Assembly (NCBI RefSeq): GCF_006345805.1
Contig: NC_042998.1
Coordinates: 49,042,001 to 49,106,000, forward strand
DNA from: Octopus sinensis
Taxonomy: Eukaryota
Length of the DNA: 64,000 bases
Direction of reading: 5' to 3'
The notes under the pieces are model-generated. The model saw only the letters and a list, made by a program, of their open reading frames with translations, had not been told where the DNA came from and did not search any database. Shown piece by piece: positions 3,947 through 51,923 of this stretch; the stretch's first letter is position 1; each line of letters opens with the position of its first letter. Position numbers and translations under genes: made by a program.

Positions 3947-4411
3947 GATATTACTGGCATAGATCCCGCTTTTATTTTAACAAATTAGCTTGCGGTTTAC
4001 ATGTAAACGTATGAAAGTGCTAATTGAACTTTATGAACATTACAAAATATAATAATAAAAAACGTGAAAACTAGACTATGTTTTAACTTTATTCAACTGA
4101 TATATATATTCAATTAAATAATGACTTTTAAACACCAATGATCCACTTCTCATTGTTAATTATTGCTCCATTTCTTTTCTCGCTCTCTCTCCATATATAT
4201 ATATATATACAGAGAGAGAGAGAGAGTTAACAGAGGAGATTGGGAGAATCTCTATATAGAAAATACTTAGTAGCGCTCAAAAGATTTGAACTTACACTCC
4301 GAGGACCAAGTCAGTGGGGGTAAAGAGTGACTCTAAGGGTAATCCAAGTGCGCAGATATGGAGACAATGATGCAAATAAACAGATAAAACTTCTTGGGTT
4401 TGATATACAGA

Positions 4412-4447
<36 letters not shown>

Positions 4448-5996
4448 TCTATATCAAACCTAAAGAATTCTATCTGTTTATTTGCATCCTTCTCTCTCTC
4501 TCACAATGTGTGTGTGTGTGTGTGTGTGTGTAAAGCAAAAGTTATGGTCGTTTAAATCAACTCGATTATATATTATATTACTGTATTTAATCGCCTCTCT
4601 GGAAAATAGCCAGCAAAATCGATTCAGCATTAAATATTAGGAGACTTGCTATGAAACATTCAGTTCGATTGCCTACCGGTCGCGACGTTGATACCATTCT
4701 AATGATCGTAATGTTTTCGTACGTGAATACTTTCATCCATACATCGTCTCAGTGTCATAAGGAAGAGCGTTATAATTTAAATAAGTTCATCTAAATTTCA
4801 ATGCCCATAATTATATTGTAATACCAACTATTTCGTAAAACCATATATAAAGACTGTCATTCAGGTGCCATCGTTTTTGACTCTGCATTAGTTTTTCTGT
4901 AAAAATTACAAAAAAAAAAGAAAACGAAAATTTTTGTCGATAACCTCAGAAAAGATATAAAAGAATCTGTGACATTTATATCTTTTCAAAGAACATTACC
5001 GGTATAAAATGAAATGATTTCAAAGAGAGAATCTAAATCTGGTCTCCGATATCGATTTGAAGAGAAAATCGCATTGATTGGATGCGTACGTCACAAAAAT
5101 GATTTCTTCTATAAAAACAAAACCTCAAGTTTTTAGGAACATTTACTGCTTGGAATAGTAATCAAATTTCACTAAAATCACACATCTTAAAAATGTTATG
5201 ATACATTTGATAATGTAGTCCTAGGTATCTTTTGCTTGTTTCAGTCATTAAACTGCAGGTTACGGCTAGAACGTCTACCATCATGCTTACTTAGGGCTAA
5301 TCTGAGGATATGCAATAACAATGAAAAAGTGAGGTTAACCAAGTGATTGGCTCCGACTAAAATCGAAACCGTATTGCCAACCGAGAAACTACTTCTATTC
5401 TATGTTGACCAAAATAATAACAAACACTTTAACAACCCCAAAGTCATGGGGAAGTGCCATAGTCTATTAAATTTACTTCCAACGCATATCAGGTACTTAT
5501 CTAATACACCTTCCACTCTCCGTCAGTGAATGAACGGCAAAGCCAGCTCTGTGGTTCCTGTGGAGACCGATCTAAATGCTGAAAAGTAGGCATTCTCTTA
5601 TTTCTTTTACACTATCACACTCATCCTATTTATAACGTTTTCTAACATACGAGTACGTGCAAAGCTACATATTTTGAGAGAGGTAGGGAGCAGCCGATTG
5701 AATCTTTTGACTAATTCTTATTTTATCGGTCCTACGAAGGCTAAAGGGCCAAGTTTTAAAGGGAAATAAATGAATGCAAAATTTTTATTCGACAGTTTAA
5801 TGACTGTGGTAAACCACCGCCCTTCTTCGCCACTGTGATAATGGCTTCTTTTGAGTAAGCAATGAGTAAATTGTCCGAGAAGATTATAGCAATCAGACCA
5901 ACTGCAATAAATAACTGGTATTGACAATTGTTTTATCAAAAGAGCCGATAATAAACAAACTCGATGAAAACCTGTTGTTGTTACTACTATTATTAA

Positions 5997-7070
5997 GGAA
6001 GCAAGCTGGCAGAAACGTTAGCACGTCGGGCGAAATGCGTAGCCGTATTTCGTCTGCCGTTGCGTTCTGAGTTCAAATTCCGCCGAGGTCGACTTTGCCT
6101 TTCGGGGTCGATAAATTAAGTACCAATTACGCACTAATAATCGACTTAATCCGTTTGTCTGTCCTTGTTTGTCCCCTCTGTGTTTAGCCCCTTGTGGGTA
6201 GTAAAGAAATAGGTATTACGCCTGCCTCTACGTTCTAAGTTCAAATTACGCCGAGGTCGACTTTGCCTTTCATCCTTTCGGGGGGGGGGCGATAAATTTA
6301 GTACCAGTTAAGTACTGGGGTCGATATAATCGACTATCACCCTCCCCACAAATTTCAGGTTTTGTGCCTATAGTAGAAAAGATTATTATTATTATTCATT
6401 TCTTTATTGCCCACAAGGGGCTAAACATAGAGGAGACAGACAAAGGGATTAAGTCGATTACATCGACTCCAGTGTGTAACTGGTACTTGTTTAATCGACC
6501 CCGAAAGGATGAAAGGCAAAGTCGACCTCAGCGGAATTTGAACTCAGAACGTAATGGCAGGCGTGCTAACGATTCTGCCAGCTCGCCGACCTCTCCCACT
6601 AGCATTATTGGTCTTACGTCAAACTTTGAAATCATTAAAACTGCAGTGAGCTGCCAGAATTGGTAGCAGGTTAAGCAAAATGCTTAACGGCATTTCATCT
6701 GTCTTTACGTTCTGAGTTCAAATTCCGCCGAGATTAGGGGTCGATAAAATAAGTGCTAATTAAGAAATGAAGTCGATGTAATCGACTTTCCCTCTCTCAA
6801 AATGTCAAACCTTGTACCCGTTGTAAGAAGAATTATTTATTTAGTGAAAGGTGGTGAGCTGGCAAAATCATTAGCATGTCGGACAAAACGCTTAGCAGCA
6901 TTTCTTCCAGCCCTTTACGTTCTGGTTTCAAATTCCGACAAGGTCAGCTTTATCTTTCATCCTTTCTGGGTCGGTAAAATATGGTACCAATCAAGTACTA
7001 AGGTCAGTACAATGGACTATTTCCCTCCCACGTAATTTCAGACTTTGTGCCTATATTAGAAAGAATTATT
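5997..7070. mobile_element. Cluster of ~5 family A SINEs, including a tail-to-tail inverted pair (~5997-6385 +, ~6400-6590 -)
   Basis: Repeated aaattccgccgaggtcgactttgcctttc core on both strands. Confidence 0.8.
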
Positions 7071-8297
7071 TATTTATTTATTGAAGTTTGTTAGACTAAT
7101 TGCAAAAGTAGATCACCAGACAAAACGCTTTACAGTATTTAGTGACGGCTTTTTTTACGTACGGAATTCACCTCCCGTCTGGTCCAACTCTATTTATCTT
7201 GCTTCTGACCTTGATACTGCCCAGAATGTTAACATTATGGAATTCCTATTTTGTCGCGGTCTTTTGAGTCATTGACTTGCAGAACATCACCCTATCAATC
7301 TCGAAGAGCCCACTAAGGACATGAATACTGCCCCTTCTTCCTGACTGAACCGTAAAAAAGTTCCTATGAAGTAGCATGAGCAATAAAATTGACTATAGCC
7401 TTGCCCAGACATTTGAGGCTTTGTGCTTATGTTAAAAGATCATTACTTGTTTTTAATGTGATTCCTTAATTTGTTTATAAGAAAGAAGATAATTTTTTTC
7501 TTCTATATGGTTCATAGTCATTTCCTAAGTGAGATGAACAATTATTTCAATAAATCTGTGATTTATTGTCTTGTCTTTGTGGATGCAGGCGTGGTTGCGT
7601 GGTTAAGAACCAGATCACTTCGCAGTTATGTGGGTTTTGGGTTCGATCTTATTGCATGAATCCTGTGCAAGTGCCTCTTCTAGAGCCATTTGCAAGCTAT
7701 TTCAGTGAGTTAGCCGTTCAATCCCTCGAATAACTGAACGTTTCTACGTCGAAATAGACCCAAGTCTTGTCTTTGTAAAATTTTACCATCAACGTATAAA
7801 AAACATTTTGATATACTGATGTGTATAACAATGTGCATACAAACGTGGAATAGCACTAATATTTTACCTCAGACAAATTTCTCAGAGATTATTGTATTAA
7901 ATATGAATTTAAAAAGGTCTTCGTTCAGGATGTCGGGGAAAGGCCAAACAGTGTTTCGACATGATTTCATATCTTCAATATCGAATACCCACGACATTCT
8001 GAGTCAGGCCTGTCTTTTTCAGAAGTTTCTCTCGGACAAAATATGACAGCTAGTGCTGCTGCTCCACGTTTGTATACCTTATTTTATACATTTTGTATAC
8101 CGGTGTGTATAACCTGATGTTGTGTTATACACACGGGTATTTTAATATAAGGCTGTTTTAGTTTTTATTATTTTAATTCTATTTTAATACATTTAATTCT
8201 TTACTGCACTGATCCATTTTTATATAAGTTATAAAGCAAACAAGAGAAGAGTATCAGTAAGTCATACAAAAAATGTTCTTTCATCGTTCGTTCATGG

Positions 8298-8391
8298 TTG
8301 TGTGTGTGTATGTGTATATATAATATATATATGTGTGTGTGTGTGTGTATGTATATATATGTGTGTGTGTGTGTGTATATATGTATATATA

Positions 8392-8422
<31 letters not shown>

Positions 8423-9376
8423 TTATATATATATATGTGTGTATGTATGTATGTATTTATATATATATATGTGTGTATGTATGTATGTATTTATATATAT
8501 ATATGTGTGTATGTATGTATGTATATATATATATATGTGTGTGTGTATGTATGTATATATATATATGTGTGTGTGTATGTATGTATATATATATATGTGT
8601 GTGTGTATGTATGTATGTATATTATATATATATATATGTGTGTGTTGTATGTATATATAAATATATATATGTGTGTGGTGTGTGTGTGTATGTATATATA
8701 AATATATATATGTGTGTGTGTGTATGTATATATAAATATGTGTGTGTATGTATATATAAATATATATATATGTGTGTGTGGTGTGTGTGTGTGTATGTAT
8801 ATATAAATATATATATGTGTGTGTGTGTATGTATATATAAATATGTGTGTGTATGTATATATAAATATATATATATATGTGTGTATGTATGTATATATAT
8901 ATATATGTGTGTATGTATGTATATATATATATATGTGTGTGTATGTATGTATATATATATATGTGTGTGTATGTATGTATATATATATATATGTGTGTGT
9001 ATGTATGTATATATATATATATGTGTGTGTGTGTGTATGTATGTATATATATATATATGTGGTGTGTGTATGTATGTATGTATTATATATATCTTTGTGT
9101 GTGTGTGTGTATGTATGTATATTATATAGTGTGTGTGTGTATGTATGTATATATATATATATGTGTGTGGTGTAGTATATATATATATATATGTGTGTGT
9201 GTGTATGTATATATAATATTATATGTGTGTGTGTATGTATGTATGTATATATATATATAGTGTGTGTATGTATGTATGTATATATATATATATGTGTGTG
9301 TGTGTATGTATGTATATATATATATATGTGTGTGTGTATGTATGTATATATATATATATGTGTGTGTGTATGTATG

Positions 9377-9409
<33 letters not shown>

Positions 9410-9412
9410 ATG

Positions 9413-9443
<31 letters not shown>

Positions 9444-9450
9444 ATGTATG

Positions 9451-9483
<33 letters not shown>

Positions 9484-9518
9484 ATGTATGTATATATATA
9501 TATATGTGTGTATGTATG

Positions 9519-9567
<49 letters not shown>

Positions 9568-9574
9568 ATATATA

Positions 9575-9607
<33 letters not shown>

Positions 9608-9947
9608 ATATATATATATGTGTGTGTGTGTGTATGTATGTATGTATATATATATATATATGTGTGTGTGTGTATGTATGTATGTATATATATATATATG
9701 TGTGTGTGTGTATGTATGTATGTATGTATATATATATGTGTGTGTGTGTGTATGTATGTATGTATATATATATGTGTGTGTGTGTGTGTATGTATGTATA
9801 TATATATATGTGTGTGTATGTATGTATGTTTATATATATATGTGTGTATGTGTGTGTGTATGTATGTTTAATATATATGTGTGTATGTATGATGTTTATA
9901 TATATGTGTGTGTATGTATGTATGTATATATATATATATATATATAT
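8298..9947. repeat. 1.65-kb compound microsatellite (TG)n(TATG)n(TA)n
   Basis: Seen directly. Confidence 0.98.
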
Positions 9948-11833
9948 GGCCTGACTAGTCTTGAAGACCCGGCAAGACTAGTCAGGCCATAACCCGTGGC
10001 CCCTACCTAGGACGTAGTCAGTCCACCTGTGCATACCTTCCTTCTTGTGACACTTGTGAAGACCTGTTGAGGCAAGTGAAAATCAAACAAAATCAAAATA
10101 GATGAACATCAATGGAATTTGTATCTTTGTGGTACCAGTGCCGGTGGCACACAAGAATACCATCCGAACGTGGGCGTAGCCAGTACCGCACCGACTGGCC
10201 TCCATGCTGTGGGCACGTAACAATCACCATCCAATCGTGGCCGATCGCCAGCCTAATCTGGCTCCTGTGTCGGTGGCACATAAAAAACACCATCCGAGCG
10301 TGTGGTCGTCTGCTAGCCTTGTCTGGCACCTGTGTCGGTGCACATAAAAACACCATCCGAGCGTGGCCGTTCGCCAGCCTCGTCTGGCACCTGTGTCGGT
10401 GGCACATAAAAAAAACACATCCGAGCGTGGTCGTCTGCTAGCCTTGTCTGGCACCTGTGTCGGTGGCACATAAAAACACCATCCGAGCGTGGCCGTTCGC
10501 CAGCCTCGTCTGGCACCTGTGTCGGTGGCACATAAAAAAAAACACCATCCGAGGTGGTCGTCTGCTAGCCTTGTCTGGCACCTGTGTCGGTGGCACATAA
10601 AAACACCATCCGAGCGTGGCCGTTCGCCAGCCTCGTCGGCACCTGTGTCGGTGGCACATAAAAAACACCATCCGAGCGTGGTCGTCTGCTAGCCTTGTCT
10701 GGCACCTGTGTCGGTGGCACATAAAAACACCATCCGAGCGTGGCCGTTCGCCAGCCTCGTCTGGCACCTGTGTCGGTGGCACATAAAAACACCATCCGAG
10801 CGTGGTCGTCTGCTAGCCTTGTCTGGCACCTGTGTCGGTGGCACATAAAAACACCATCCGAGCGTGGCCGTTCGCCAGCCTCGTCTGGCACCTGTGTCGG
10901 TGGCACATAAAAAACACCATCCGAGCGTGGTCGTCTGCTAGCCTTGTCTGGCACCTGTGTCGGTGGCACATAAAAACACCATCCGAGCGTGGCCGTTCGC
11001 CAGCCTCGTCTGGCACCTGTGTCGGTGGCACATAAAAACCAATCCGAGCGTGGTCGTCTGCCACCTGTGTCGTGGCGTGGCACATAAAAACACCATCCGA
11101 GCGTGGCCGTTCGCCAGCCTCGTCTGGCACCTGTGTCGGTGGCACATAAAAAACACCATCCGAGCGTGGTCGTCTGCCAGCCTTGTCTGGCACCTGTGTC
11201 GGTGGCACCTGTGTCGGTGGCACATAAAAACACCATCCGAGCGTGGCCGTTCGCCAGCCTCGTCTGGCACCTGTGTCGGTGGCACATAAAAAAAACACCA
11301 TCCGAGCGTGGTCGTCTGCTAGCCTTGTCTGGCACCTGTGTCGGTGGCACATAAAAACACCATCCGAGCGTGGCCGTTCGCCAGCCTCGTCTGGCACCTG
11401 TGTCGGTGGCACATAAAACACCGCCGAGCGTGGTCGTCTGCCACTGTGTCGGTGGCACATAAAAAACACCATCCGAGCGTGGCCGTTCGCCAGCCTCGTC
11501 TGGCACCTGTGTCGGTGGCACATAAAAAACACCATCCGAGCGTGGTCGTCTGCCAGCCTTGTCTGGCACCTGTGTCGGTGGCACCTGTGTCGGTGGCACA
11601 TAAAAACACCATCCGAGCGTGGCCGTTCGCCAGCCTCGTCTGGCACCTGTGTCGGTGGCACATAAAATCACCCACTACACTCTCGGAGTGGTTGGCGTTA
11701 GGAAGGGCATCCAGCTGTAGAAACACTGCCAGATCTGACTGGCCTGGTGCAGCCTTCGGGCTCCCCAGACACCAGTTGAACCGTCCAACCCATGCTAGCA
11801 TGGAAAGCGGACGTTAAATGATGATGATGATGA
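9945..11833 (+). mobile_element. RTE-like non-autonomous retroelement (family D) with expanded internal tandem array and (ATG)n tail
   Basis: 3' module gttggcgttaggaagggcatccagctgtagaaac...ggacgttaaa(tga)n shared with 49530-49997, 54200-54535, 45170-45325. Confidence 0.75.
10265..11666 (+). repeat. Minisatellite of ~59-62-bp units (roughly two dozen), alternating A/B variants
   Basis: A: gtggccgttcgccagcctcgtctggcacctgtgtcggtggcacata(n)caccatccgagc; B: gtggtcgtctgctagccttgtctgg... Confidence 0.95.
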
Positions 11834-12657
11834 TATGTGTGTGTGTGTATGTATGTATATATATAAAACTATGAATGATGACAGAACATTTTTGACTAGA
11901 TTATGTAGGCTGAAAATATACTGGTTTATTTTTATTTTTTGTGCCTGTTGATAATATCAAACGTCATTTGACATGAGATGAATCACAAGGTTCGTTAATT
12001 ACAAAAGAAGCTGTCAAATTTACCGTGTGACATTTGTACATTTTCATTAGCAACTTGAAAAAAAAATTTAAGGAATGCATTTGAGAACAATTAAAGCTCA
12101 AGTAGCTTTCTGGGTTTTTTTTCCCTCTCAAATTTCTTTTTTTTTTTTTTCCTTATCACAATCCCATGTGTTGCATATGTAAAGTACATTTTTCAAAATT
12201 CAATTTTAATCCGTTTTTATCTTATTATCTATCGAAACAAAAAAATAAAACATAGCTAGTTATTCGCCAGTTTTAATTTTAAAAAATATTCTTATATTCA
12301 TTTTAATTTTTTGAATATTTTTTTTTTTAATTTTGACAATCCCCACCCCGACAGAATTGAATGAAGATGTGTAAATAAATCCTTTCGGTCCGCTGTACCT
12401 TTGGACACATAGCTAAGTGCTTATATATGACCTCAAGTACAAATGTGATTCAGACGTCTTGCTATAAAATGTCACGTTTTTTTATTATTCGTGCTACTTT
12501 CTCGTTTATTCAAAAGTGACGTCTACACTTCTTGCACAACTAACTATATCACACGATTTTGAACTATTGTTCTCGACATTGTTGTAGTTGTTACTGTTGT
12601 TTAACCCTAACTGAGTATATCTATGATCAAAACCATTCCGGTCATGACCATCTCGTC

Positions 12658-12696
<39 letters not shown>

Positions 12697-12958
12697 CACG
12701 ATCATATTGTCCAATATGTCTGTCTTTTTTTTAAGACCGCAATGTGTGAAAGAATTTGGCTTCTATTTCTAGTAAGTAGAACGATTGCATAAAAGCGCCG
12801 TGGTCCACCTTTTTGCAGTTGCTATTTAATCCGGGCCAGTCCTGATTGAAAAGACCTAACACCACCAGGTATTCCAACAACGACGTTTCGTCTTTTCAAG
12901 CATAATCTTAGATTACGTTATCCAAGGTCATTTTTAGTTCTTTTTTGTTCCTTTAGAC

Positions 12959-13256
12959 CAGGCCTGGCCGACTCGAATTACATTAATCACAGAAAGTTTT
13001 TTTGAAGGCCGCTTGTATACTTTATGCACTAATAGTCAAATAATCAAATTACAGAACCAAGAATTTTTCATACTTTTCATTTGTTTAAAATTATAAAACT
13101 GTAGGCTGTTGCTTTATTGCCACTTATAAACTTTAAATTTATTTTGAAACAAATGTTTTACACAAATAATTTTATTTTGAAATTAACCACAATACTTCAA
13201 GAAAGTATCAAGTGGGCCGCAAGATAAGTCTGTGGGCCTCAGGTTGGCCAGCCCTG
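12959..13256. mobile_element. hAT-type MITE with 8-bp TSD ctttagac
   Basis: TIR caggcctggccgac / gttggccagccctg; TSD at 12951-12958 and 13257-13264; a second hAT-like end (cagtgattct) starts at 13265. Confidence 0.8.
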
Positions 13257-14216
13257 CTTTAGACCAGTGATTCTGAACCGGGGTTCATGTGATCCCTGGG
13301 AGACCGTGTAAGATTTTTGAGGGTCCACGCAAGAAAAATAGCAAGTTGTAGATCCACAGTAGTATTCTAAGGATTCATGAAAAATGTTGCTTTTGATGTA
13401 TTTATTGCAGGAAACGGTTAGGTTTCTTTCTCTAGTGTTTTATATAGTTCAACTTACACACGTTCTTGTATGAAAAACAAAAGCCGCTATAAAACTAGTG
13501 GTATTCGTTCCGTCTCTTTACGTCCTTGAGTTGTTGGATGGTAGGCATAAACCATCGCTCGGTTTATCACCACCACTTGGTTTTCAGGTGCTTTTAGCGG
13601 AGTTCCTTGTTGCTCACATTCGATTTTGGTTTCCGATTTGAGGATAACCTTCTCTGCTCTTTCCCCTAGTCTCGAAAGCTTTGTAAAAAGAAAGTAATGG
13701 TTGTTACGTCCCCCTCTCTTTAACGAAGCTTTAAATATAATCTTAAAAAAGGGTTCGCCACTTTATCACTATATGGTTTATTCACCTTATTCTGGGTGAG
13801 GATTCTAATTTCGTCTTCAACTTAAGGTTTATTGTGTTCTAGTTATTTCGTTTCCTGTCGTCGATGAGTCCAACATTCTAGCCTAGTAGTTAGGGGTGTT
13901 GGACGTGTTGTGTTCTTGAGCAAGACACTTTGTTTCACGTTGTTCCTACCTACTCGGCTGAAATGATCACTAGCTGAGTGTTGTTGCAACCCTTTCTTCC
14001 TTCAGTTATGTCGTTCCGGTTTTGACTCCGACGCAATACTTTGGCCAGATGTCATCTACCATATTCTTGACGTTGTTGTTGGAAAGGCAATAATTTGATT
14101 GACTCATCGAAACATATTTCGTTAGAAGTGTTATTTTATCCTTCTCTGCATTTGTCATATAGATAAGTTAAAGCATTTAACGCATTTTTAAAAGACCAGT
14201 GTGCTACAATATATAT

Positions 14217-14536
14217 AAGGCCCGTGGCTTAGTGGTTAGGGGAATTCGACTCGTGATCGTAAGGTTGTGAGTTCAATTCCCGGCGGCGCGTTGTGTCCTT
14301 GAGCAAGACACTTTGTTTCCCGTTACTTCAGTCCACTCAGCTGACAAAAATGAGTAGTACCTATATTTCAAAGGGTCAGTTCTTGTCACACTCTGTGTCA
14401 CGCTGAATCTCCCCGAGAACTACGTTAAGAGTACACGTGTTTGTGGAGTGCTCAGCCACTTGCACGTTAATTTCATGAGCAAGCTGTTCCGTTGATCGTA
14501 TCAGCTTGGACCCTCGTCGTCGCAACCGACGGGGTG

Positions 14537-14537
<1 letters not shown>
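14217..14537 (+). mobile_element. tRNA-derived SINE family C
   Basis: gtggcttagtggttaggg A-box, gagttcaattccc B-box, gtccttgagcaagacactt...ccactcagctg core. Confidence 0.8.
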
Positions 14538-14574
<37 letters not shown>

Positions 14575-15231
14575 ATATATATATATATAGGCATGACTAA
14601 TAGATTGAACACGTAAAACGAGTCAAAAAGACTTTGCACTGTCATTCGACTTTCAAGAAATGGCAACCAAATCTCTCTACCTCCTTCTTGATAAGAGGAG
14701 GTAACACTTTGAATAATGTAATCCTAGATACGCCATGACTGGGGAAAAGACATGTTTGTTATGAATGGAACGCCTTTGATTATAGTACTGCTTGATCAGC
14801 GTTGACTTAGGACTAAACAACAGCAACAAGTAAAATATTTGTTTATCTCTTCTAACCTGTTCAGGTCACATTGGCTCTTTGGTGATAAGTTTCTTTTATT
14901 TCTATCACCCCCAGTTAACTGGTTGGCATTACTTTAATCAAGAAACCTTCGTACAAGTGTGAGCGTGTCAGTGAATTTATGAACACGATATGTTTATTTG
15001 CATGCATTTATATATGTTTGCTTTCCTACGAAAATTTGTACGTATAGGAGTGCGTGCTTATATTCATTTTCCGATAAATAAAAGACACTCTTATCTAGAG
15101 ACTTGAAAAATGACTATACATACGGTCATAGTTCTGTCTCTCTATCTCTCAAATATTCTCGTCTTTTTTTTTTCTTTAACCTCTTAACACATTTTTTTTT
15201 TCAATGTCCATGCAGAATATATCATTTTTTA

Positions 15232-15641
15232 GGATCTTTTCGGTTTGAACGGCAGTTTTTTAAAAAATAATTTCACGTAACTAAAAACTTTTAAACTTCG
15301 CATACTAGTAGAATGTGTTTATAAAACATCTTTTTCTCTTAGCTTTATTGAGAAAATTCTATAGTTTGTAAGATATTTGTTGTTGTTTTTCTTCAATTTC
15401 TGCAATTTCAACCAATCAATGACGTCTATTGAGGTGAAAACATTCTGTGCCGTAAGAAACATATTGGGTTTATTTACATTTATGAAGAAAAAAATACCCT
15501 CCCCTCCCCCTACCCCTAACCCTAACTAACCCTAACCCTAAAACAGATTGAAATGCAATAGATCGATAGTAGGGTCATAATTATGGGTGACAATTTCATA
15601 TGACACCGCTAGAAAAACTGCCGTTCAAACCGAAAAGATCC
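15232..15641. mobile_element. MITE, Merlin-like (GG..CC ends), 9-bp TSD catttttta
   Basis: TIR ggatcttttcggtttgaacggcagttttt / aaaaactgccgttcaaaccgaaaagatcc; TSD at 15223-15231 and 15642-15650; internal (ccctaa)n. Confidence 0.85.
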
Positions 15642-16602
15642 CATTTTTTATTATTATTTATTTTCAATCTGTATGTAAGGAAGAATAAGTACACAAATTA
15701 TTTTGGATCAGTTATGATTTATTATGAAGTTACTGATAGAAATGATAGTTACTGATAGTTAATCATAACAGGAATAACGTCATGAACGAAGTATTTCGGG
15801 TTAGAAATAAGTGAGATATAATTCAGAGTACAGTGAACGTACATTTTCGTTCAAATATATATATATTTACTAGACATCCCTCAACGAAAATATACGGGAT
15901 TGTATGTTAAGATGTTAACCAATTTATTCTGCACCTCAGCGCCCTCTTTCACTCAATTGTATTTTACCAACACCCTCTTCCCCCCATATTTTGTGGAAGA
16001 AAATAAAAATCATTATTTTAATCGAACAGAAGCTAGTTTTATACAGTAGATTATCTCGATTTCCTTATGTTATTCCATCCATTATGTGCCATTTTTAGTA
16101 AGTTACGTAGGTTAATTTGTTGAATTTAACATGTTTAATGTTAAAGATTCCTGGATATTACTAACGAAGTTGAGGACTTATATAATGAAATCATACTAGC
16201 TTTTTACGCATCATCATTCATGTCTCTGCTCACTGATAGCACAACGTCCTACACATATTCTAATCCCAACAAAAATTTGCTTAGAAAATATATTTAAATA
16301 AGTATTGTACTTGGTTTAAATATCTTATTTCTAAGAAAAAGCATGACCTTCTAAATACCAAGAGCACTCATAGCGCTTCCTTAATATTTGTCTTCCTCTT
16401 GTAAGCTCATAATGCCCCTGGGTGGTCGTTAACTTCTGGGTCATTGGTTCTCAATCGGAATCCATATCGACCTTGGGGATCCATATAAGATTTTGTTGTT
16501 AAAGTTGATGTGCAATAAATTGCTGATACTTCTATAATACACATAATATTTTTTTTACACAATTCCTAATAATATTTAATTTATATACAGTAGGATATAT
16601 AT

Positions 16603-16681
<79 letters not shown>

Positions 16682-16683
<2 letters not shown>

Positions 16684-16895
16684 ACCCTTCTGTCCGAGTT
16701 AGACGCCATGATAGATCGTTAGCCACTACACACATTTTTTTTCTCTCCTTGTTTTTTCTGTGTCCCTTTCTGTAGAAGAGCGTAGGCTCGAAACATAAAA
16801 GACTTTTTCTATTCCTGAGCGTTATACTAATACATCTGTTTGTTTTGTACATCACCTGTCTTCGTCTTTTGTTTTTTTTTTTCGTAAACTCTCCC
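16682..16895 (+). mobile_element. Short hammerhead-bearing Penelope-like element (family E) in microsatellite
   Basis: Homologous to 18891-19100 (-), 30271-30427 and ~32400-32626; bounded by (TA)n/(TG)n. Confidence 0.65.
16766..16801 (+). ncRNA. Minimal hammerhead-like motif, CUGUAGA core, stem III mutated
   Basis: cttt-CTGTAGA-a-GAGC gtag GCTC-GAAA-CAT-A-aaag (G>A at 16795 relative to the 18981 copy). Confidence 0.45.
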
Positions 16896-17160
16896 TATAT
16901 ATATATATATATATATAACATGTAGTGAGGGATTATAAATCCGTGCAAAATACTTCATAAGCTTTCTGTTGGCACACCAGGCTAACAATGTTACTAAGAT
17001 TAGTGAAAAACTCCAAGTAATCTTTTGGTAGGATCCCAAGTTATGGTTCATCACAATTTTATATTGTAAATCCGTGGATGAACTTCAAATAAATTGGTTT
17101 TTACAGAGTGATATTTAAGAAACAAGTTTAAATAATGACCATTATTTTTAACTTGTTTCA

Positions 17161-17201
<41 letters not shown>

Positions 17202-17210
17202 ATATATATA

Positions 17211-17253
<43 letters not shown>

Positions 17254-18856
17254 CACAATGGCTATGGTGGTCCAGTAGAGTAAAATAGGAGCCAAAGGGA
17301 TCCATAGTTAAAGAATGATTGAGAAACACTGCTCTAGTTGTTGCTCTTTAGCCCAAGGTCAGCCTTGATCGAGTGGACATATGATGAAAGACATCCCAGT
17401 CGTTTTAAGTTGTTCCCATAGCATTTCTGCCATTAGAGCACTTTAATTCTTTTACTAATATTTTTCACCCCAAGTAAGGCAATTTACGTTCTGAGTTCAA
17501 ATTTCACCGAGATCGACTTTGCCTTTCATTCTTCGCGATCGATAAATTAAGTACCAGTCGAGCTCTAGGGTTGATGTAATTAACTTACCCCCCCCTCCTC
17601 AGGACCTTTGTAGTCCTTGTTCCCAAAATTTGAAACCAATATTTTTCACATCAAGTTTACTGAGCCAATCTGTTTTTTAACCCTTTTCTTTTACTTTCCA
17701 TTTTCCCTAACTCCATTCTTTTCTTCTCTAGACACAAGGACCGAAACTTTTGGGGAGGGAGCCAGTCGATTAGATCGACCCCAGTACGCACTGGTACTTA
17801 ATTTATCGAATCCGAAAGGATGAAAGGCAAAGTCGACCTCGGCGTAATTTGAACTCAGAATGTAAATTGCCTTACTCTAACTCCATTGTACTTTCAAGTG
17901 ATCCACCCATTCCTCTGATGGAACGAAACCATTCACTGCATTTTTTTTTTTTTTTGTTTCTCTAAACCTCTTTCTCTCTTCCTGACCAACAACAAAAAGT
18001 TGTTCTGAGAATGACTGTCTCATTCATTTCTCTCCCTTTCTCTCTCATTTTTCTTTTTCTCTGTCTCTCTCTCCCTCCCTGCCGTTCCTCTCTATCTTCC
18101 CCCTTTCTCTCTTATAAAGTTAAAACATTTCATAAGAGCCTCTTTGGAAGGTTTGCCATGTCCTTCCTGTCACTAACCACTTCACAGCATACAATGGGTC
18201 TTCTCACACGTGTCAAGGATTTCGTGTCTATTTTTGTCTGGTTTTCTAGTATGCTTATGTCGCACATCTGTTATACAGTACAGTCGCACTCATCATATGT
18301 CTTTGTCCCATGAGCAAGGAACATGAGACTACATTACTTAACGTATTCTTTGCTAAGACGGTGAAACAATATGATTTGAAAGAATTTTGTTGCTATTTCT
18401 AGCAGGTCAAGCGATCACATACAGGTTTCATCGTTGGCTCGAAATCAAGTTTAAGTCGTTTGTAAAGCAACATGTTTTGTTGATAAGATCGTTTTAAAAT
18501 ATTATCCTTTTGTAGGTCACATAACTAATAATTGTCTTCGTTGGCAAGCAGGACTTTACACAAATAGAAAACAGTGCAGCAAATACAAAACAGCAATACG
18601 CAATTCAGTATTGTGGCTTAAATCTAATACAGCAAATAAAAGTTAATGATAGAGAATTTTAAAAAAAAAGTAAAGGTGTTTAGAGGAAGGGAAAGCAGAC
18701 ACAGCTTGGGAAATTAACCTATTTTAATACAGAGCATTTCAATTTATTAAATTAACTGATAGAAAATGTTTCGTATACATGCACACACACACACACGTGT
18801 GTGTATGTACACGAAACACTTTTTTTATACTCTCTCGTTCATTTTACATACGGAAA

Positions 18857-18890
<34 letters not shown>

Positions 18891-18894
<4 letters not shown>

Positions 18895-19098
18895 AAAGTT
18901 TACGAAAAAACAAAAGACGAAGACAGGTGGTGTACAAAACAAGTAGATGTATTAGTGTAACGCTCAGGAATAGAAAAAGTCTTTTACGTTTCGAGCCTAC
19001 GCTCTTCTACAGAAAGGTATAGAGAAAAAACAAAGAGAAAAAAATGTGTGTAGTGGCTAACGATCTATCATGGCGACTAGTGCCGGACAGAGGGATCA

Positions 19099-19100
<2 letters not shown>
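18891..19100 (-). mobile_element. Family E element, inverted relative to the 16682 copy
   Basis: Near reverse complement of 16682-16895, flanked by (TA)n. Confidence 0.65.
18981..19016 (-). ncRNA. Minimal hammerhead-like motif, CUGUAGA core
   Basis: Minus strand reads cttt-CTGTAGA-a-GAGC gtag GCTC-GAAA-CGT-A-aaag. Confidence 0.55.
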
Positions 19101-19137
<37 letters not shown>

Positions 19138-19314
19138 AAGCAAACTTGCTACTTAAAATCTGAGGCGAAAGTAGTACATGTACCGAGAAGCAATGTTTAG
19201 CACCACCTGAATACCTGAATACCCGGGGTTAAAATGTAGTATCATCTGTTCTTGTTGAACATCCGTATTTAGGTGGCGATAAATAAATAAATACATATAT
19301 ATATATATATGAGA

Positions 19315-19530
19315 GATTTCAATATGTGACCGCGTGTGTATCGCTGGTGATTTTCTTTCTCCGTCTTCCCTTCCTTGGACTTTTCCTTTTTTCTATATTT
19401 CTGACGAAGAGCTCCTCTCGAAACGTTAAATCCTCCTCCTTTCTTTCCTTTCCTGAGCGTCCAATAACACTATACTTGTTCTACGTCCTCGCGTTGTTGT
19501 GTTTTCTCTTTGTTCGTGTTTGGATTAACT
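19315..19530 (+). mobile_element. Related hammerhead-bearing element (family E-like)
   Basis: Shares the hammerhead and the downstream ttcctgagcg...taa(t/c)ac motif with family E. Confidence 0.55.
19397..19431 (+). ncRNA. Minimal type I hammerhead ribozyme motif (canonical CUGACGA core)
   Basis: attt-CTGACGA-a-GAG ctcct CTC-GAAA-CGT-T-aaat; palindromic ACGT stem III as in minimal, dimer-type Penelope hammerheads. Confidence 0.65.
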
Positions 19531-20363
19531 ATATGAGAGAGAGGTGGTTAGGGTAAATCCCAGCTGTTTTCTCTTGAAGTACATCTGCTTATTCCATTAT
19601 TACAATCCAATATGTGGTCTCCGTTGCTGCTGTATTTTAACCAAAATACATATTAAATGTCACGGAGATATACTTGCATAGCGAATGGTATTATATTTAT
19701 TCTGTCAGAAGAATTTCTAATAGGAAATTACTTAGATGTCTACATAACATGGAAAACTTTGTAATTCCTGTTAGCAAAGGGAACACGTGTAATGGAGAAG
19801 AAATAACACCAAAACATTTCCACTTTCCTGTTTTGTAATATATATTTTCTTTATTGCGCTAACGCAATTAGTGGAAAGTGATTTAAATTATAAGCGAAGC
19901 TTTTCCATATTTGAGAGTTCGAGACCTTATTACGATCCCATTTGTAGCTATTTTCATGTCAGTTTTATAGCTAATGTTCTCGAGAATAACATGCCCTAAT
20001 TACCGGTTCCCGTTTCCCCATCCGCCTCTTTCGAAGGAAATGATTATCTGTGATACATATTGCTCTCTCAAGTTATAAGTTATTGTTTCAAATTTTGGTA
20101 CATGGTCGGCCATTTTAGTGGGAGGCGGTTAATTGATACCATCGATTTCAATACTAAAGTAGTTCTTTATTTTATCAACCACGAAAGAATGAGAGAGAAA
20201 GTCGACCTCGCCGAAATTTGAATTCAGAATATAATGAATCAAAAGAACTACCGCGCATAATTTTTGCCCAATGTTGAAGTAATTCTGCCGGCATTAAATG
20301 TCTGTTTGATGACTATTTTTGATCAATGGGATTCATCAAAGAGCAAATGACTTTATTGGTTTC

Positions 20364-26485: not shown

Positions 26486-26928
26486 GGTAACAGTAAAATA
26501 ATTACAGACATTGACAAGAACATGAAAACACCACAGAGACGACACAAGAACCACAGGACGGGACATTCGAAGCCCTCAGTCATCAGTCAAGAACCAGATC
26601 ATCTTAGCAATTTCGGCTGATTAATCTTAGTTGCTCCGATATGGCCAGCCCGCCAAGGGAAATCTAAGCCAAGCGCATTAGATCCCCTGGAAGAAAGCTT
26701 CGAATGTATACAACACGAGGACGGAAAACGAACGAAGTACACGAACAAAAATACAGAATACAAAAACGTAAAAACAATAACGGTAAAAATAAAAAATAAA
26801 CAACAAAACAAAACCAGGACGTAGGACAAGGGTATGTGTGTGTGTGTGTATATATATATATATTTGTGTGTGTGTATATATATATGTGTGTGTGTATATA
26901 TATATATGTGTGTGTATATATATATATA

Positions 26929-26971
<43 letters not shown>

Positions 26972-27725
26972 ATATATATATATATGTGTGTGTGTGTATA
27001 TATATATGTGTGTGTGTATATATATGTGTGTGTGTGTATATATATATGTATGTGTGTGTGTATATATATATGTGTGTGTATGTATATATATATATGTGTG
27101 TGTGTATATATATATGTGTGTGTGTGTATATATGTATGTGTGTGTGTATATATATATGTGTGTGTGTGTATATATGTATGTGTGTGTGTATATATGTGTG
27201 TGTATATATATGTGTGTGTGTGTGTATATATATATGTGTGTGTGTATATAGATATATATATATATATGTGTGTATATGTATATGTATATATATATGTGTG
27301 TGTGTGTATGTATATATATGTGTGTGTGTGTGTATATATATATGTGTGTGTGTGTGTATATTTATATATATGTGTGTGTGTATGTGTATATTTATATATA
27401 TGTGTGTGTGTGTGTATATTTATATATGTGTGTGTGTGTGTATATGTATATATATATATATGTATATATGTGTGTGTATATATATGTATGTGTATATGTG
27501 TGTGTATATATATGTATGTGTATATGTGTGTGTATATATATGGATGTGTATATGTGTGTGTATATATATGTATGTGTATATGTGTGTGTATATATATGTA
27601 TGTGTATATGTGTGTGTATATATATGTATGTGTATGTGTGTGTGTGTGTATATATGTGTGTGTATATATATGTATATGTGTATGTGTGTGTATATATATA
27701 TGTGTGTGTGTGTGTGTGTTTGTAT
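25961..27725. repeat. Compound (TG)n(TA)n microsatellite, interrupted at 26487-26832
   Basis: Seen directly. Confidence 0.97.
26487..26832 (-). mobile_element. Non-coding element embedded in the compound microsatellite, possibly Penelope-like
   Basis: Complex 350-nt island between (TA/TG)n tracts; minus strand shares cttgt(c/t)ctacgtcct and cgtcctcg(c/t)gttgt with the 19315 element. Confidence 0.4.
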
Positions 27726-27809
27726 ATTTGCGTATCAGCGCACGCAAGACAAATAATGGCTTCAAATCAACAAAAAATGGCACAAGGCCAACAATTTTGA
27801 AATATCATC

Positions 27810-30041: not shown

Positions 30042-30270
30042 GCACGCACGCACACATTTAAAAACTTCTTTGAAATGTTCTGAAGAAGGTTTACGTAATT
30101 CTTTTATTCATTTATTTGTTTCAGTTGATTTGACTGTGGCCATAGTGGAGCACCGCCTTTAGTCGAGCAAATCGACCCCAGGACTTATTCTTTGTAAGCC
30201 TAGCACTTATTCTATCGGTCTCTCTCAAACAGAGACACAGAAACATATACATAAATACATATATATATAT

Positions 30271-30427
30271 GTTTTTCTCTCCCTGTGTATCTTTCTGTTG
30301 AAGAGCGTAGGCTCGAAACGTTAAAGACTTGTTTTATTTATATTTCCTGAGCGCCATACTAATACAATTGTTCGTTTGTTTTCCACCTGCCTTCGTCTTT
30401 TGTTTATTTTCATAAAGCTTCCCGTTA
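30271..30427 (+). mobile_element. Family E element nested in the internal microsatellite of a family B SINE
   Basis: gagcgtaggctcgaaacg...ttcctgagcgcc...cccgtta(ta)n, inside the SINE at ~30110-30628. Confidence 0.6.
30290..30327 (+). ncRNA. Minimal hammerhead-like motif, CUGUUGA core
   Basis: tcttt-CTGTTGA-a-GAGC gtag GCTC-GAAA-CGT-T-aaaga. Confidence 0.55.
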
Positions 30428-30466: not shown

Positions 30467-32399
30467 CGACGGGCTTCTTTCAGTTTACATCTACCAAGTC
30501 CACTCTCAAGGCTTTGGTCGGCCCAAGGCTTAGTAGAAGACATTTGTCAAAGGTGCCACGCGGTTTGACTCAACTCGGAACCATTTGGTTCATAAGCAAG
30601 CTACTTACCACACAGTCATTCCTGCGCCTGGATGCATTTCCTATTACATATTATACGAACCTGAAACGTATTAGATGATTTCAAAATCTTACTATTTGAT
30701 TTTTGACTTCTTTATTACAGTTTGTACGAGTCGATGCCAGTACTCAACATATGCGTTGCTCAAACAGTGATTTTGTAGTAGTTTAATACGCGCGTGCGCG
30801 TTAAAGTAAAAAAAAAAAGAGCACTCAGCGCATACCTATTGGTTTGAGTCTCTCTGACGAAAATTCCATGTATATTTTCATATATATATATATATATATC
30901 ACCTTGATCACCCAGTCCGTCGGGCGTCCATTTGACACCGCTGGTCACAGCACGCTGTCCACTCCTCTCTGGATCGCGCCTTCCTCATCCACGTTGTCCC
31001 AATCGCCACGTGAATTAGGAGGGCGATTGGGACCACGTGGATACACACACACACACAAAATGTGTCTGTGTTTGTCCATCACCACCGCTTGACAACTGGT
31101 GTTGGTTTGCTTATATCCCCATACTTTAACGGTTAGAGACCGATGGAATAAGTACGGGGCTTTTTTTTTTTAAATTAAGTACTGGAGTCGATTCATTCAA
31201 CTAAAACCCTTCAACGCGATGCCCCAACATGGCCGCAATTCAGTGACCGAGACACGTAAAAGCTAAAAGATATATAAACTTACAGGGAAATATGGTATTA
31301 TAACAATTTTTATTTTACAGATGTTCTTAATCACTGGGGATAAATTTCGGTAATGTGTTTCTTAAAAAAAACCTGTTCAAGTTAGGCATTTTTTCATCCA
31401 TGTGGAGATCGTTTCATTTCGTTACTTGATCCACTTTCATATTTGATCCGTCTTTTGATCCACACCCAGATGATTCCTCGTTATCAGTGCAAAATACCAG
31501 TGATAGTCAATGAAATGACGAGAATAGCTCATCGTCCTTTTTTCTTTTCTTTTTCAATTTTCGCTTGCACCTTTAATTTTTTTTCAATTCGTTTTCTTTT
31601 TTTTTAATTCTTTGGTTTGCATATTTAAAGCAGAAAAACGGATATTGCCATTCTACAAAATAAATAAATCAATAATAATTTCAAAATAACATAAGTCGAA
31701 AATAAATCAATGAGAAGATTGCTGTAACTCGGTCGGCCCCGGTAATATATGTTTTCTATAATAGCCTGTAGTGTAATTATCTCTTGTGGAAAAAATTATT
31801 TAAATCGAACCCTAAATTCGATGGAACAAGTTAGTGTTTAGATTTTTTCTTTCGGAATTAGCTACACTAAGAATGAAATAATTGAAGAAATTACAGAAAA
31901 TATAGGTTTTAGGCGTGTGTGGTTCAGAAGCTCGCTTTGTAACCATGTGGTTTCAGGTTCAGTTTCACTGTTCGGCTCTGGCCGATCAATGCCCTGGAGT
32001 GATTTCGTAGACGAAAACTTGTGTGTATGTATGTATATATATATATATATATATATATTATTATAATATATAATATATTATAAACCCTATACATACACAC
32101 GTCCAGACCCGCTCGCTTATCTCTCAACACACACACACATATACCTATACATACCAATACGTACTAATACATCAATACATATAATACATACTAATACATA
32201 CACCACCCCATACTACGCATGTCCAGACCAATCTTACGCACTAATACTCTCTCTCACACACACACACACACCCTTTATACATACTAATACATACACCAAC
32301 CCTATACATACACACATCCGACCCCTCCCACGCACTTTTAGCTGTCCCTCAACCTTTTTATCAACCCTATTATCTCCCCTTTTTCGCTCTCGCGTCTCA

Positions 32400-32625
32400 T
32401 GTTTGATCTTTGACCTCTGGCCGAACAGATCGCCATGTTGATCGTTAGCTACTGCACGCATTTTTTTCTCTCCTTCTTTCTGTGTTTTTCTCTGTGTATC
32501 TTTCTTGGAGCGTAGGCTCGAAACGTTAAGAGACTTGTTTTATTATATTTCCTGAGCGCCATACGAATACATTGTTCGTTTGTTTTCCACCTGTCGTCGT
32601 TTGTCTATTTTCATAAAGCTTCCCG

Positions 32626-32626
<1 letters not shown>
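32400..32626 (+). mobile_element. Family E element with partly deleted hammerhead core
   Basis: Homology to the other copies; core reads cttggagcgtaggctcgaaacgtt. Confidence 0.55.
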
Positions 32627-49529: not shown

Positions 49530-49997
49530 AATGGAATTTGTATCCTTGTGGTACCAGTGCCGGTGGCACATAAGAAAACCATCCGAACGTGACCGTAGCC
49601 AGTACCGCAACGACTGGCCTCCGTGCTGAGGGCACGTAACAAACACCATCCGAGCGTGGCCGTCCGCCAGCCTCGTCTGTAACCTGTGTCGGTGACACAT
49701 AAGAAAACACCATCCGAGCGTGGCCGTCAGCCAGCCTCGTCTGGCACCTGTGTCGGTGGCACATAAAAAACACCATCCGAGCGTGGCCGTCTGCCAGCCT
49801 CGTCTGGCACCTGCGTCGGTGGCACATAAAATCACCCACTACACTCTCGGAGTGGTTGGCATTAGGAAGGGCATCCAGCTGTAGAAACACTGCCATATCT
49901 GACTGGCCTGGTGCAGCCTTCGGGCTTGCCAGACCCCAGTTGAACCGTCCAACCCATGCTAGCATGGAAAGTGGACGTTAAACGATGATGATGATGA
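49530..49997 (+). mobile_element. Family D element with only ~3-4 internal units
   Basis: Colinear with 10111-11833 apart from unit number. Confidence 0.8.
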
Positions 49998-51700: not shown

Positions 51701-51834
51701 GTGTGTTTAGGGGAGTTTGTAATAATTTGTTGAAAAGAATTGTTCTTTTTTTCTCTACTGAATTGTAATGCAGAGAATTATTTTGATTTTTTTTTTTTTT
51801 TATAAGAATTCTCCAAGAATATTTCACTAATCTA

Positions 51835-51885
51835 TTTCTTTTTCTTTTCTCTTTTTTTCTCTCTTTCATTATGCTACGCAAGAAG
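51835..51885 (+). promoter_or_regulatory. 3' splice site of the Kir main exon, tandem AAG/AAG (NAGNAG) acceptor
   Basis: Pyrimidine tract tttcttttctctttttttctctctttc followed by ...acgcAAGAAGacg; frame open from here (EDVSSEWSRSGSLE) into the ORF ATG. Confidence 0.55.
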
Positions 51886-51923
51886 ACGTATCAAGTGAGT
51901 GGAGCAGAAGTGGCTCGCTCGAG

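What the first reader, a model, noticed from the sequence alone, without database searches (positions are those of the whole stretch)
16682..19100. Microsatellite-associated element family with a recurrent non-canonical hammerhead core (U at position 6)
Three copies (16766, 18981 minus, 30290) keep the full minimal type I hammerhead architecture: stem I cttt/aaag, stem II GAGC-gtag-GCTC, GAAA, palindromic ACGU stem III (mutated in the 16766 copy) and a GUA/GUU triplet. All read CUGUAGA or CUGUUGA instead of CUGANGA. A6 is near-invariant in hammerheads, so U6 shared by two diverged subfamilies suggests a tolerated variant or a repurposed fold, not random decay. All copies abut (TA)n. Minimal hammerheads in Penelope-like elements are established; whether this variant has been described I cannot check.
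Basis: partly seen in the sequence, partly recalled or inferred. Interest (0 to 1): 0.7.

Follow-up and report, generated by a model that had tools for sequence, protein, structure and literature searches.

The report
Octopus retroelement hammerhead with fixed U6
A very abundant short repeat in an octopus genome, likely the end of a Penelope-type jumping gene, carries a hammerhead self-cutting RNA motif in which one normally fixed core letter (A6) is U across the family while the rest of the motif is kept, so it is predicted to cut slowly at best, and cutting is untested.

Summary
Three copies read CUGU(A/U)GA in a minimal type I hammerhead. The host is Octopus.

U6 is family-wide, not decay. 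In 4,364-20,114 contigs per run, A6 stays under 1% in the 2 of 4 runs where this can be bounded, while N7 takes all four letters. Two subfamilies differ at 0 of 30 constrained positions against 23 of 108 flank positions (p=0.004). Outside the family, 0 of 54 valid metagenome motifs have U6. The A6 sister family shows 2.7-3.9 times less depth.

Published data say position-6 changes cripple cleavage, and that a Penelope element inserts without cleavage in vitro. Best reading: a slowed, dimer- or protein-assisted hammerhead still under selection (0.5). Rivals are a non-cutting fold (0.25) and drift (0.15). No autonomous partner and no stem covariation within the U6 family were shown. Verdict: new variant of a known kind.

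The parts
16682..16896 (+). U6-family copy 1 (subfamily 1), about 215 nt, between microsatellites
   Evidence: 88% identical to copy 2
16766..16801 (+). Minimal hammerhead of copy 1: C3 16770, U6 16773, extra A 16777, G12 16790, stem III palindrome broken at 16795 (G16.2 read as A, a CpG-type change), predicted cut after 16797
18892..19098 (-). U6-family copy 2 (subfamily 1), (TA)n on both sides
   Evidence: reference for read laying
18981..19016 (-). Minimal hammerhead of copy 2: C3 19012, U6 19009, N7 19008, H17 18985; intact apart from U6
30270..30425 (+). U6-family copy 3 (subfamily 2), 5'-truncated, (TA)n on both sides
   Evidence: 77-80% identical to copies 1 and 2
30290..30327 (+). Minimal hammerhead of copy 3: C3 30295, U6 30298, U7, H17 (U) 30322, 5-bp stem I
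32430..32626 (+).
19311..19534 (+).
19397..19431 (+). Canonical minimal hammerhead: C3 19401, A6 19404, C7, extra A, 3-nt loop II, ACGU, H17 (U) 19427, stem I AUUU/AAAU
16812..16821 (+). Conserved 10-nt box TTCCTGAGCG, 14-22 nt 3' of the predicted cut; also at 18961-18970(-), 19450, 30344, 32549
   Evidence: 5 matches, 0.03 expected

Best explanation
These copies belong to a high-copy octopus repeat, likely the pseudo-LTR end of a (TA)n-targeting Penelope-like retroelement, whose minimal type I hammerhead has U at core position 6 across the family and is predicted to cut only slowly, as a dimer or with help from protein. Shown: the architecture, the fixation of U6, free variation at N7, two states at H17, a common 3' end at (TA)n, and a sister family with A6. 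Inferred: A6 is ancestral and changed once in the founder of this family. Inferred: the transcript is copied by a Penelope RT/GIY-YIG protein that nicks (TA)n and starts reverse transcription about 92-103 nt downstream of the cleavage site. Inferred: two motifs pair through the ACGU palindrome to build stem III. Inferred: U6 weakens the CUGA turn, but selection on master copies kept the rest of the core because residual cleavage still matters, while fast cleavage is not needed to spread.
For: Fixation: no row at position 6 among 40 rows shown (23 hidden). Runs X1 and X9 list one A>T and two A>C places in all, each shown elsewhere, so A6 and G6 are under 1% there. N7 is A 44-51%, U 24-34%, C 12-19%, G 2-14% of depth in 4 of 4 runs, and U17 is 11-22%. 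G17 and C17, and changes of A9, A9.1, A13, A14 or A15.1 to G or C, are under 1% in 4 of 4 runs (tallies). Copy 2 against copy 3: 0 of 30 constrained positions differ, 2 of 6 free ones (N7, H17) and 23 of 108 flank positions, p=0.004. The motif matches the published min-HHR consensus, U-rich/CUGANGAH/G..C/GAAAN-palindrome-NUH, except at position 6 (PMC4209133). The same stem II/ACGU layout with A6 lies next to Penelope-type ORFs in L071 (RT) and L079 (GIY-YIG) (both Pfam hits just below the curated cut-off). The cut-to-3'-end distance is 92-103 nt; in anole Poseidon it is 85-92 nt by my subtraction from PMC11167929. Loose ends at 18897 give (TA)n as consensus in 38-93 contigs per run. A natural A6C hammerhead keeps low activity, below 0.1/min (PMC3088659). 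The Poseidon hammerhead cuts only with protein and is dispensable for insertion in vitro.
Against: No cleavage data. In a pairwise mutagenesis study all CUGA-region mutants had low activity, with no rescue except the C3/G8 swap (PMC9901934, passages). U6 pairs with A15.1 in the predicted lowest-energy fold, and the double-hammerhead fold scores about 10-13 kcal/mol worse than the dimer minimum for copies 2 and 3; the A6 copy scores worse still, so this does not single out U6. CpG-type changes in stem III are 7-9% in the U6 family against about 1% in the A6 family. G1.4 of stem I reads U in 6-9% of depth with no compensation seen. A6 above 1% is not excluded in X2 and X5, nor C6 in any run. No covariation within the U6 family. 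No intact same-strand tandem pair and no PLE ORF in the window. The p-value rests on one pair of copies, with T-rich flanks that may mutate faster.
Confidence: 0.5

Rival explanations
1. Repurposed fold: U6 abolished cleavage, and the stem-loop is kept as a recognition or assembly element for the Penelope protein or a host protein, perhaps together with the downstream 10-nt box.
For: Catalytic mutants of the Poseidon hammerhead do not affect insertion in vitro, and no RNA-seq reads ended at its cut site. U6 creates a U6-A15.1 pair in a rod-like fold. A 10-nt box outside the ribozyme is as conserved as the core. The U6 family out-amplified its A6 sister by depth.
Against: The positions that vary between subfamilies are exactly the two that hammerhead chemistry leaves free, N7 and H17. 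Loop II is unchanged between the subfamilies, so this pattern fits a catalytic core at least as well as a protein site. A6/C7 relatives form similar rods.
Confidence: 0.25
2. Founder effect and drift: the ribozyme died in one master that happened to amplify, and the apparent conservation reflects limited time and slow change in a G+C-richer patch.
For: Higher CpG decay in stem III than in the A6 family. Two of four window copies have further lesions, G16.2 to A and a core deletion. No stem covariation inside the family. Naiad elements spread without canonical hammerheads (PMC8557442, passages).
Against: At least three substitutions reached high frequency at N7 while no non-CpG core change did among the rows and tallies seen. 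0 of 30 against 23 of 108 differences.
Confidence: 0.15
3. Fully active variant: in this dimeric context, with the extra A9.1 or a bound protein, U6 supports cleavage at the same rate as A6.
For: Core otherwise fixed and family very successful. Unchecked notes of this scan report position-6 variants in shark and ray PLEs (leads only).
Against: A6 in 53 of 54 valid metagenome motifs that also carry A9.1 and in 44 of 44 alignment rows seen in PMC4209133. Mutagenesis literature.
Confidence: 0.1

Closest known systems
Minimal hammerheads (min-HHR) in pseudo-LTRs of metazoan Penelope-like elements (Cervera and de la Pena 2014, PMC4209133; read: main-text parts 1-2 of 4, part 2 of 3 of supplementary file 2)
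   Same: Type I, short stem I, unpaired nucleotide between 9 and 10.1, G10.1-C11.1, palindromic 15.2-16.2 with no loop III, NUH, U-rich upstream, mostly solo copies.
   Different: U at position 6. All 44 rows seen have A6. The core changes described in what I read are U3-A8 and insertions, and no cephalopod is among those rows.
Anolis Poseidon (PAc) hammerhead (Frangieh et al. 2024, PMC11167929; read: parts 1-2 of 4)
   Same: Hammerhead about 90 nt before the 3' end of insertions; AT-rich targets.
   Different: PAc has a linked ORF and shown protein-assisted cleavage; neither is shown here.
Natural A6C hammerhead of phage Bcep176 (Perreault et al. 2011, PMC3088659; read: parts 2-3 of 8)
   Same: Natural substitution at position 6; there it leaves low activity (below 0.1/min).
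   Different: A single phage locus with C6; here U6 is fixed in a very large animal repeat family.
Dimeric PLE-associated hammerheads with reduced stem III (Lunse et al. 2017; not held, seen only as cited in PMC6765202 passages and reference lists)
   Same: Palindromic, near-absent stem III; dimer cleavage proposed.
   Different: Could not check whether octopus or U6 forms are in that set.
Metazoan non-LTR retrozymes (Li et al., bioRxiv 10.64898/2026.07.22.740005, read: part 1 of 5; PMC7229834, listing only)
   Same: Short, non-coding, type I hammerhead, likely moved by PLE proteins.
   Different: Retrozymes are tandem arrays with a hammerhead in each unit; all copies in this window are solo.
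Neptune and Naiad PLE clades (Craig et al. 2021, PMC8557442; passages and supplementary metadata rows)
   Same: Microsatellite, (TA)n-type insertion bias.
   Different: Naiads are reported to lack canonical hammerheads, so a Neptune-type partner is more likely; the clade is untested because no ORF is linked.

Membership tests
Minimal type I hammerhead of PLEs | Stems I and II around the core, G10.1-C11.1 | tested here: met
   38 of 40 cells paired
Minimal type I hammerhead of PLEs | Unpaired nucleotide between A9 and G10.1 | tested here: met
   A in 3 of 3 U6 motifs and in the A6 copy
Minimal type I hammerhead of PLEs | Palindromic 15.1-16.1 and NUH triplet | tested here: met
   ACGU in 2 of 3 U6 motifs, ACAU in one; H17 is A or U, G and C under 1%
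Minimal type I hammerhead of PLEs | Core CUGANGA with A6 | tested here: not met
   U6 in 3 of 3 window motifs; A6 under 1% in runs X1 and X9. Filed as a variant, not as a canonical member.
Minimal type I hammerhead of PLEs | Self-cleavage after H17 as a dimer | not testable with these tools
   needs a bench assay; only contigs, no raw RNA reads, were offered
Minimal type I hammerhead of PLEs | Covariation in stems | tested here: inconclusive
   one two-sided change, C-G to A-U, between families; 112 of 500 shuffles reach it
Penelope-like element (EN+) | ORF with RT and GIY-YIG linked to the repeat | tested here: inconclusive
   none in the window; no genome held; contigs too short to link
Penelope-like element (EN+) | Hammerhead near a defined 3' end; AT-rich or microsatellite target | tested here: met
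   92-103 nt to the end; (TA)n follows in 4 of 4 U6-family copies
Penelope-like element (EN+) | Partial tandems, inverted pLTR, 30-40 bp tail | not tested
   needs the assembly; no such structure among the five window copies
Non-LTR retrozyme | Tandem units, each with a hammerhead | tested here: not met
   solo copies; no tandem array of this unit

The most novel reading that the evidence does not exclude
Position 6 is the one core position that dimeric Penelope hammerheads can give up. The octopus U6 RNA is a natural, protein-assisted ribozyme that cleaves at useful rates inside a ribonucleoprotein, possibly braced by a kink-turn formed by the conserved downstream CUGA-GCG box and an upstream CGC-NNN-GAU strand. 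CUGANGA-based searches would then miss whole high-copy ribozyme families.
Probability: 0.15. Interest if true: 0.65.

Novelty: new variant of a known kind. Interest (0 to 1): 0.42.

Why it matters
What PLE hammerheads are for is open: they cut poorly in vitro, and one is dispensable for insertion. This genome offers a natural paired test, with two homologous families sharing stem II and the downstream box, one with A6 and one with U6, and the U6 one the more abundant. If U6 cuts, the hammerhead core rules loosen in dimers or RNPs and standard descriptors undercount ribozymes. If it does not, it shows a hammerhead fold kept by selection for a non-catalytic job. It stays a one-letter variant of a known motif, so the interest is moderate.

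Tried and rejected
Rfam scan: no hammerhead model hit; all 113 matches are below their gathering scores and look like microsatellite noise. Exact family patterns gave 0 loci in JGI metagenomes, GTDB genomes and IMG/VR. tblastn of locus ORFs, including the L071 RT and L079 GIY-YIG, against the window gave no hit at E<=1. The 355 nt upstream of the 32430 copy has no PLE ORF and only low-complexity matches in the window. Relatives of the L079 protein (56 hits) named no cephalopod. An alternative register with the extra A as A9 was rejected because it leaves no G8. The downstream CUGAGCG as a second core strand was rejected because it has no G8-A9. Loop II-upstream pseudoknot: weak (per-copy p 0.03-0.47 in a 20-nt window; 17 metagenome loop types, upstream against downstream p=0.13). 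Run X20 (organism E, RNA, small share) laid 0 contigs on the A6 copy, which is no evidence either way. Run X9 is RNA only by guess, so transcription is not shown. The 20-nt family motif was not found in the supplements searched for PMC8557442 and PMC13282606; these may not hold the repeat libraries. Folding energies do not separate U6 from A6/C7 motifs.

Full report
Observation. A minimal-hammerhead descriptor with one core mismatch allowed gave 4 hits in 64 kb: 16770(+), 19012(-) and 30295(+), all with U6, and 19401(+) with the canonical CUGACGA. Block shuffles gave 0.04 hits per window, none with a palindromic stem III (25 shuffles). Each motif has an unpaired A between A9 and G10.1, which Cervera and de la Pena list as a conserved trait of PLE minimal hammerheads (PMC4209133). 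A fourth family copy near 32430-32626 has a 4-nt deletion in the core. Copies 1 and 2 are 88% identical, and copy 3 is 77-80% identical to them. The A6 element (19311-19534) is collinear with the family and shares the downstream box TTCCTGAGCG, exact in 5 of 5 copies against 0.03 expected. The Kir protein of the window is 100% identical to an Octopus protein, in a cluster whose named members are O. bimaculoides, O. sinensis and O. vulgaris. The genus is therefore Octopus; the species is not resolved.

Is U6 a family trait? No assembly is held, so contigs of four public runs (labels A, B, C, A) were laid on copy 2 at 80% likeness: 13,954, 12,346, 20,114 and 4,364 records. Depth there is not copy number, and 23 of 63 difference rows were hidden. 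Position 7 shows all four letters in 4 of 4 runs (A 44-51%, U 24-34%, C 12-19%, G 2-14%), and H17 is U in 11-22%. Position 6 has no row. The per-run tallies bound it: X1 and X9 list one A>T place and two A>C places, all shown at other positions, so A6 and G6 are below 1%. X2 and X5 have one and two unshown A>T places, so A6 is not excluded there, and C6 is not excluded in any run. The T>C and T>G tallies are fully shown in all four runs, so G17, C17 and changes of A9, A9.1, A13, A14 or A15.1 to G or C are below 1%. The visible core changes are at CpG sites: G12 2.5-4.4%, C11.1 2-3%, C15.2 and G16.2 7-9% in X1 and X5. One stem I position, G1.4, reads U in 6-9% with no partner change seen. Between copies 2 and 3, 0 of 30 constrained positions differ, 2 of 6 free positions (N7, H17) and 23 of 108 flank positions (Fisher p=0.004). 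Copy 1 against copy 3 gives p=0.047, and copy 1 against copy 2 is uninformative.

Controls. The A6 sister is also a high-copy family: 2,879, 3,923 and 1,555 contigs in X1, X5 and X6, and none in X20. All 17 rows were shown and none lies at A6 or C7. Its majority stem II is GAGC/GCUC, as in the U6 family, with a UCC loop. Peak depth of the U6 family is 2.7 (X1) and 3.9 (X5) times higher, in line with 4 copies against 1 in the window. Of 125 matches, 54 have U16.1 and at least 3 bp of stem I: 53 are A6, 1 is C6 and 0 are U6. All 10 U6 matches lack U16.1. These hits fall into a few families and are not independent. In two loci the motif flanks Penelope-type ORFs: L071 has an RT ORF just downstream (PF00078, E=5e-5) and L079 a GIY-YIG ORF ending about 100 nt upstream (PF01541, E=2e-4), both just under the curated cut-offs. 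In the published alignment, 44 of 44 rows that I saw have A6. A6 is therefore most likely ancestral and U6 derived (inference).

What the element is. It is a unit of about 210 nt with a common 3' end followed by (TA)n in 4 of 4 U6-family copies; loose ends at that place give (TA)n as consensus in 38-93 contigs per run. The predicted cut lies 92-103 nt from that end. In anole Poseidon, reverse transcription starts 111-118 nt into the ORF and the hammerhead cuts at 26, a gap of 85-92 nt (PMC11167929; my subtraction). Microsatellite targeting is described for Neptune and Naiad PLEs, and Naiads are reported to lack canonical hammerheads (PMC8557442). PLEs make up 6.83% of the O. vulgaris genome in a recent annotation (PMC13282606 supplement row; main text part 1 of 3 read). 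I read the element as a solo pseudo-LTR or non-autonomous derivative of a Neptune-type PLE. No ORF is linked, so this is inferred.

How it most likely works. The literature predicts damage. A natural A6C hammerhead cuts at under 0.1/min (PMC3088659), and CUGA-region mutants were low and not rescued by second changes except the C3/G8 swap (PMC9901934, passages; I did not see a value for A6U itself). Even canonical min-HHRs were inactive as monomers and weak as dimers. The Poseidon hammerhead cuts only with the element's protein, and its catalytic mutants still insert in vitro. A family can thus spread with a weakened core. Yet after U6 was fixed, master lineages went on changing at N7 and H17 and kept the rest. 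I put 0.5 on slow, dimer- or protein-assisted cleavage still under selection, 0.25 on a non-cutting fold kept for protein recognition, 0.15 on drift and 0.1 on full activity. Folding does not decide: U6 pairs with A15.1 in a rod-like minimum, but A6/C7 motifs form similar rods, and the double-hammerhead fold is not the minimum for any window copy. Covariation is too thin to count, with one C-G to A-U change between families, reached by 112 of 500 shuffles.

Novelty. Nine literature searches listed no paper whose title or abstract start describes a U6 minimal hammerhead or octopus PLE hammerheads; several listings were partial (20 of 56, 20 of 35). Lunse et al. 2017 is not held and could contain such forms. 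Supplementary file 1 of PMC4209133 was not searchable, and the repeat library of PMC13282606 and the per-mutant data of PMC9901934 were not seen. PMC11014351, PMC6765202, PMC6155905 and PMC4176186 were read as passages only, and those passages describe no position-6 variant. Unchecked notes of this scan report the same A6U family elsewhere in this genome and position-6 variants in shark and ray PLEs. These are leads, not support; if true, position-6 relaxation recurs in PLEs. Verdict: a real, family-wide variant of a known motif, function untested; interest 0.42.

Noticed in passing
window 16812, 18961-18970(-), 19450, 30344, 32549: The 10-nt box TTCCTGAGCG is exact in 5 of 5 copies of both families, 14-22 nt after the predicted cut. 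An upstream CGC-N3/4-GAU could form a kink-turn with it in 3 of the 4 copies that keep the upstream part (about 2% per copy in shuffles, but chosen after the fact). Its GAGC could instead pair with the 3' strand of stem II.
   Followed up: partly
window 19311-19534: Canonical A6 sister family, high-copy, A6 and C7 fixed. Stem I position 1.4 is split between U and C (37-65% C); loose ends hint at a G partner in one subfamily. A GGA upstream could pair with loop UCC.
   Followed up: partly
window 32076-32430: The fourth copy is not bounded by (TA)n at its 5' side and runs into about 350 nt of C/A-rich sequence, possibly a longer 3' UTR of the parent element.
   Followed up: partly
L003, L007, L079 and related metagenome loci: In two A6 min-HHR families, loop II can pair over 5-6 bp with sequence upstream of stem I in most copies, a possible pseudoknot; over 17 loop types the trend is not significant.
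   Followed up: partly
L038: One metagenome motif with C6, U16.1 and a 3-bp stem I.
   Followed up: no
window 10212-11667 and 49549-49831: Tandem arrays of a 62-63 bp GC-rich unit at two distant places, apparently part of another repeat family.
   Followed up: no
window 51831-53069: Single long exon of an inward-rectifier potassium channel, identical to Octopus proteins.
   Followed up: yes
window 8299-9948 and 26832-27727: Long compound (TG)n/(TA)n arrays with higher-order periods of 26-34 nt.
   Followed up: no
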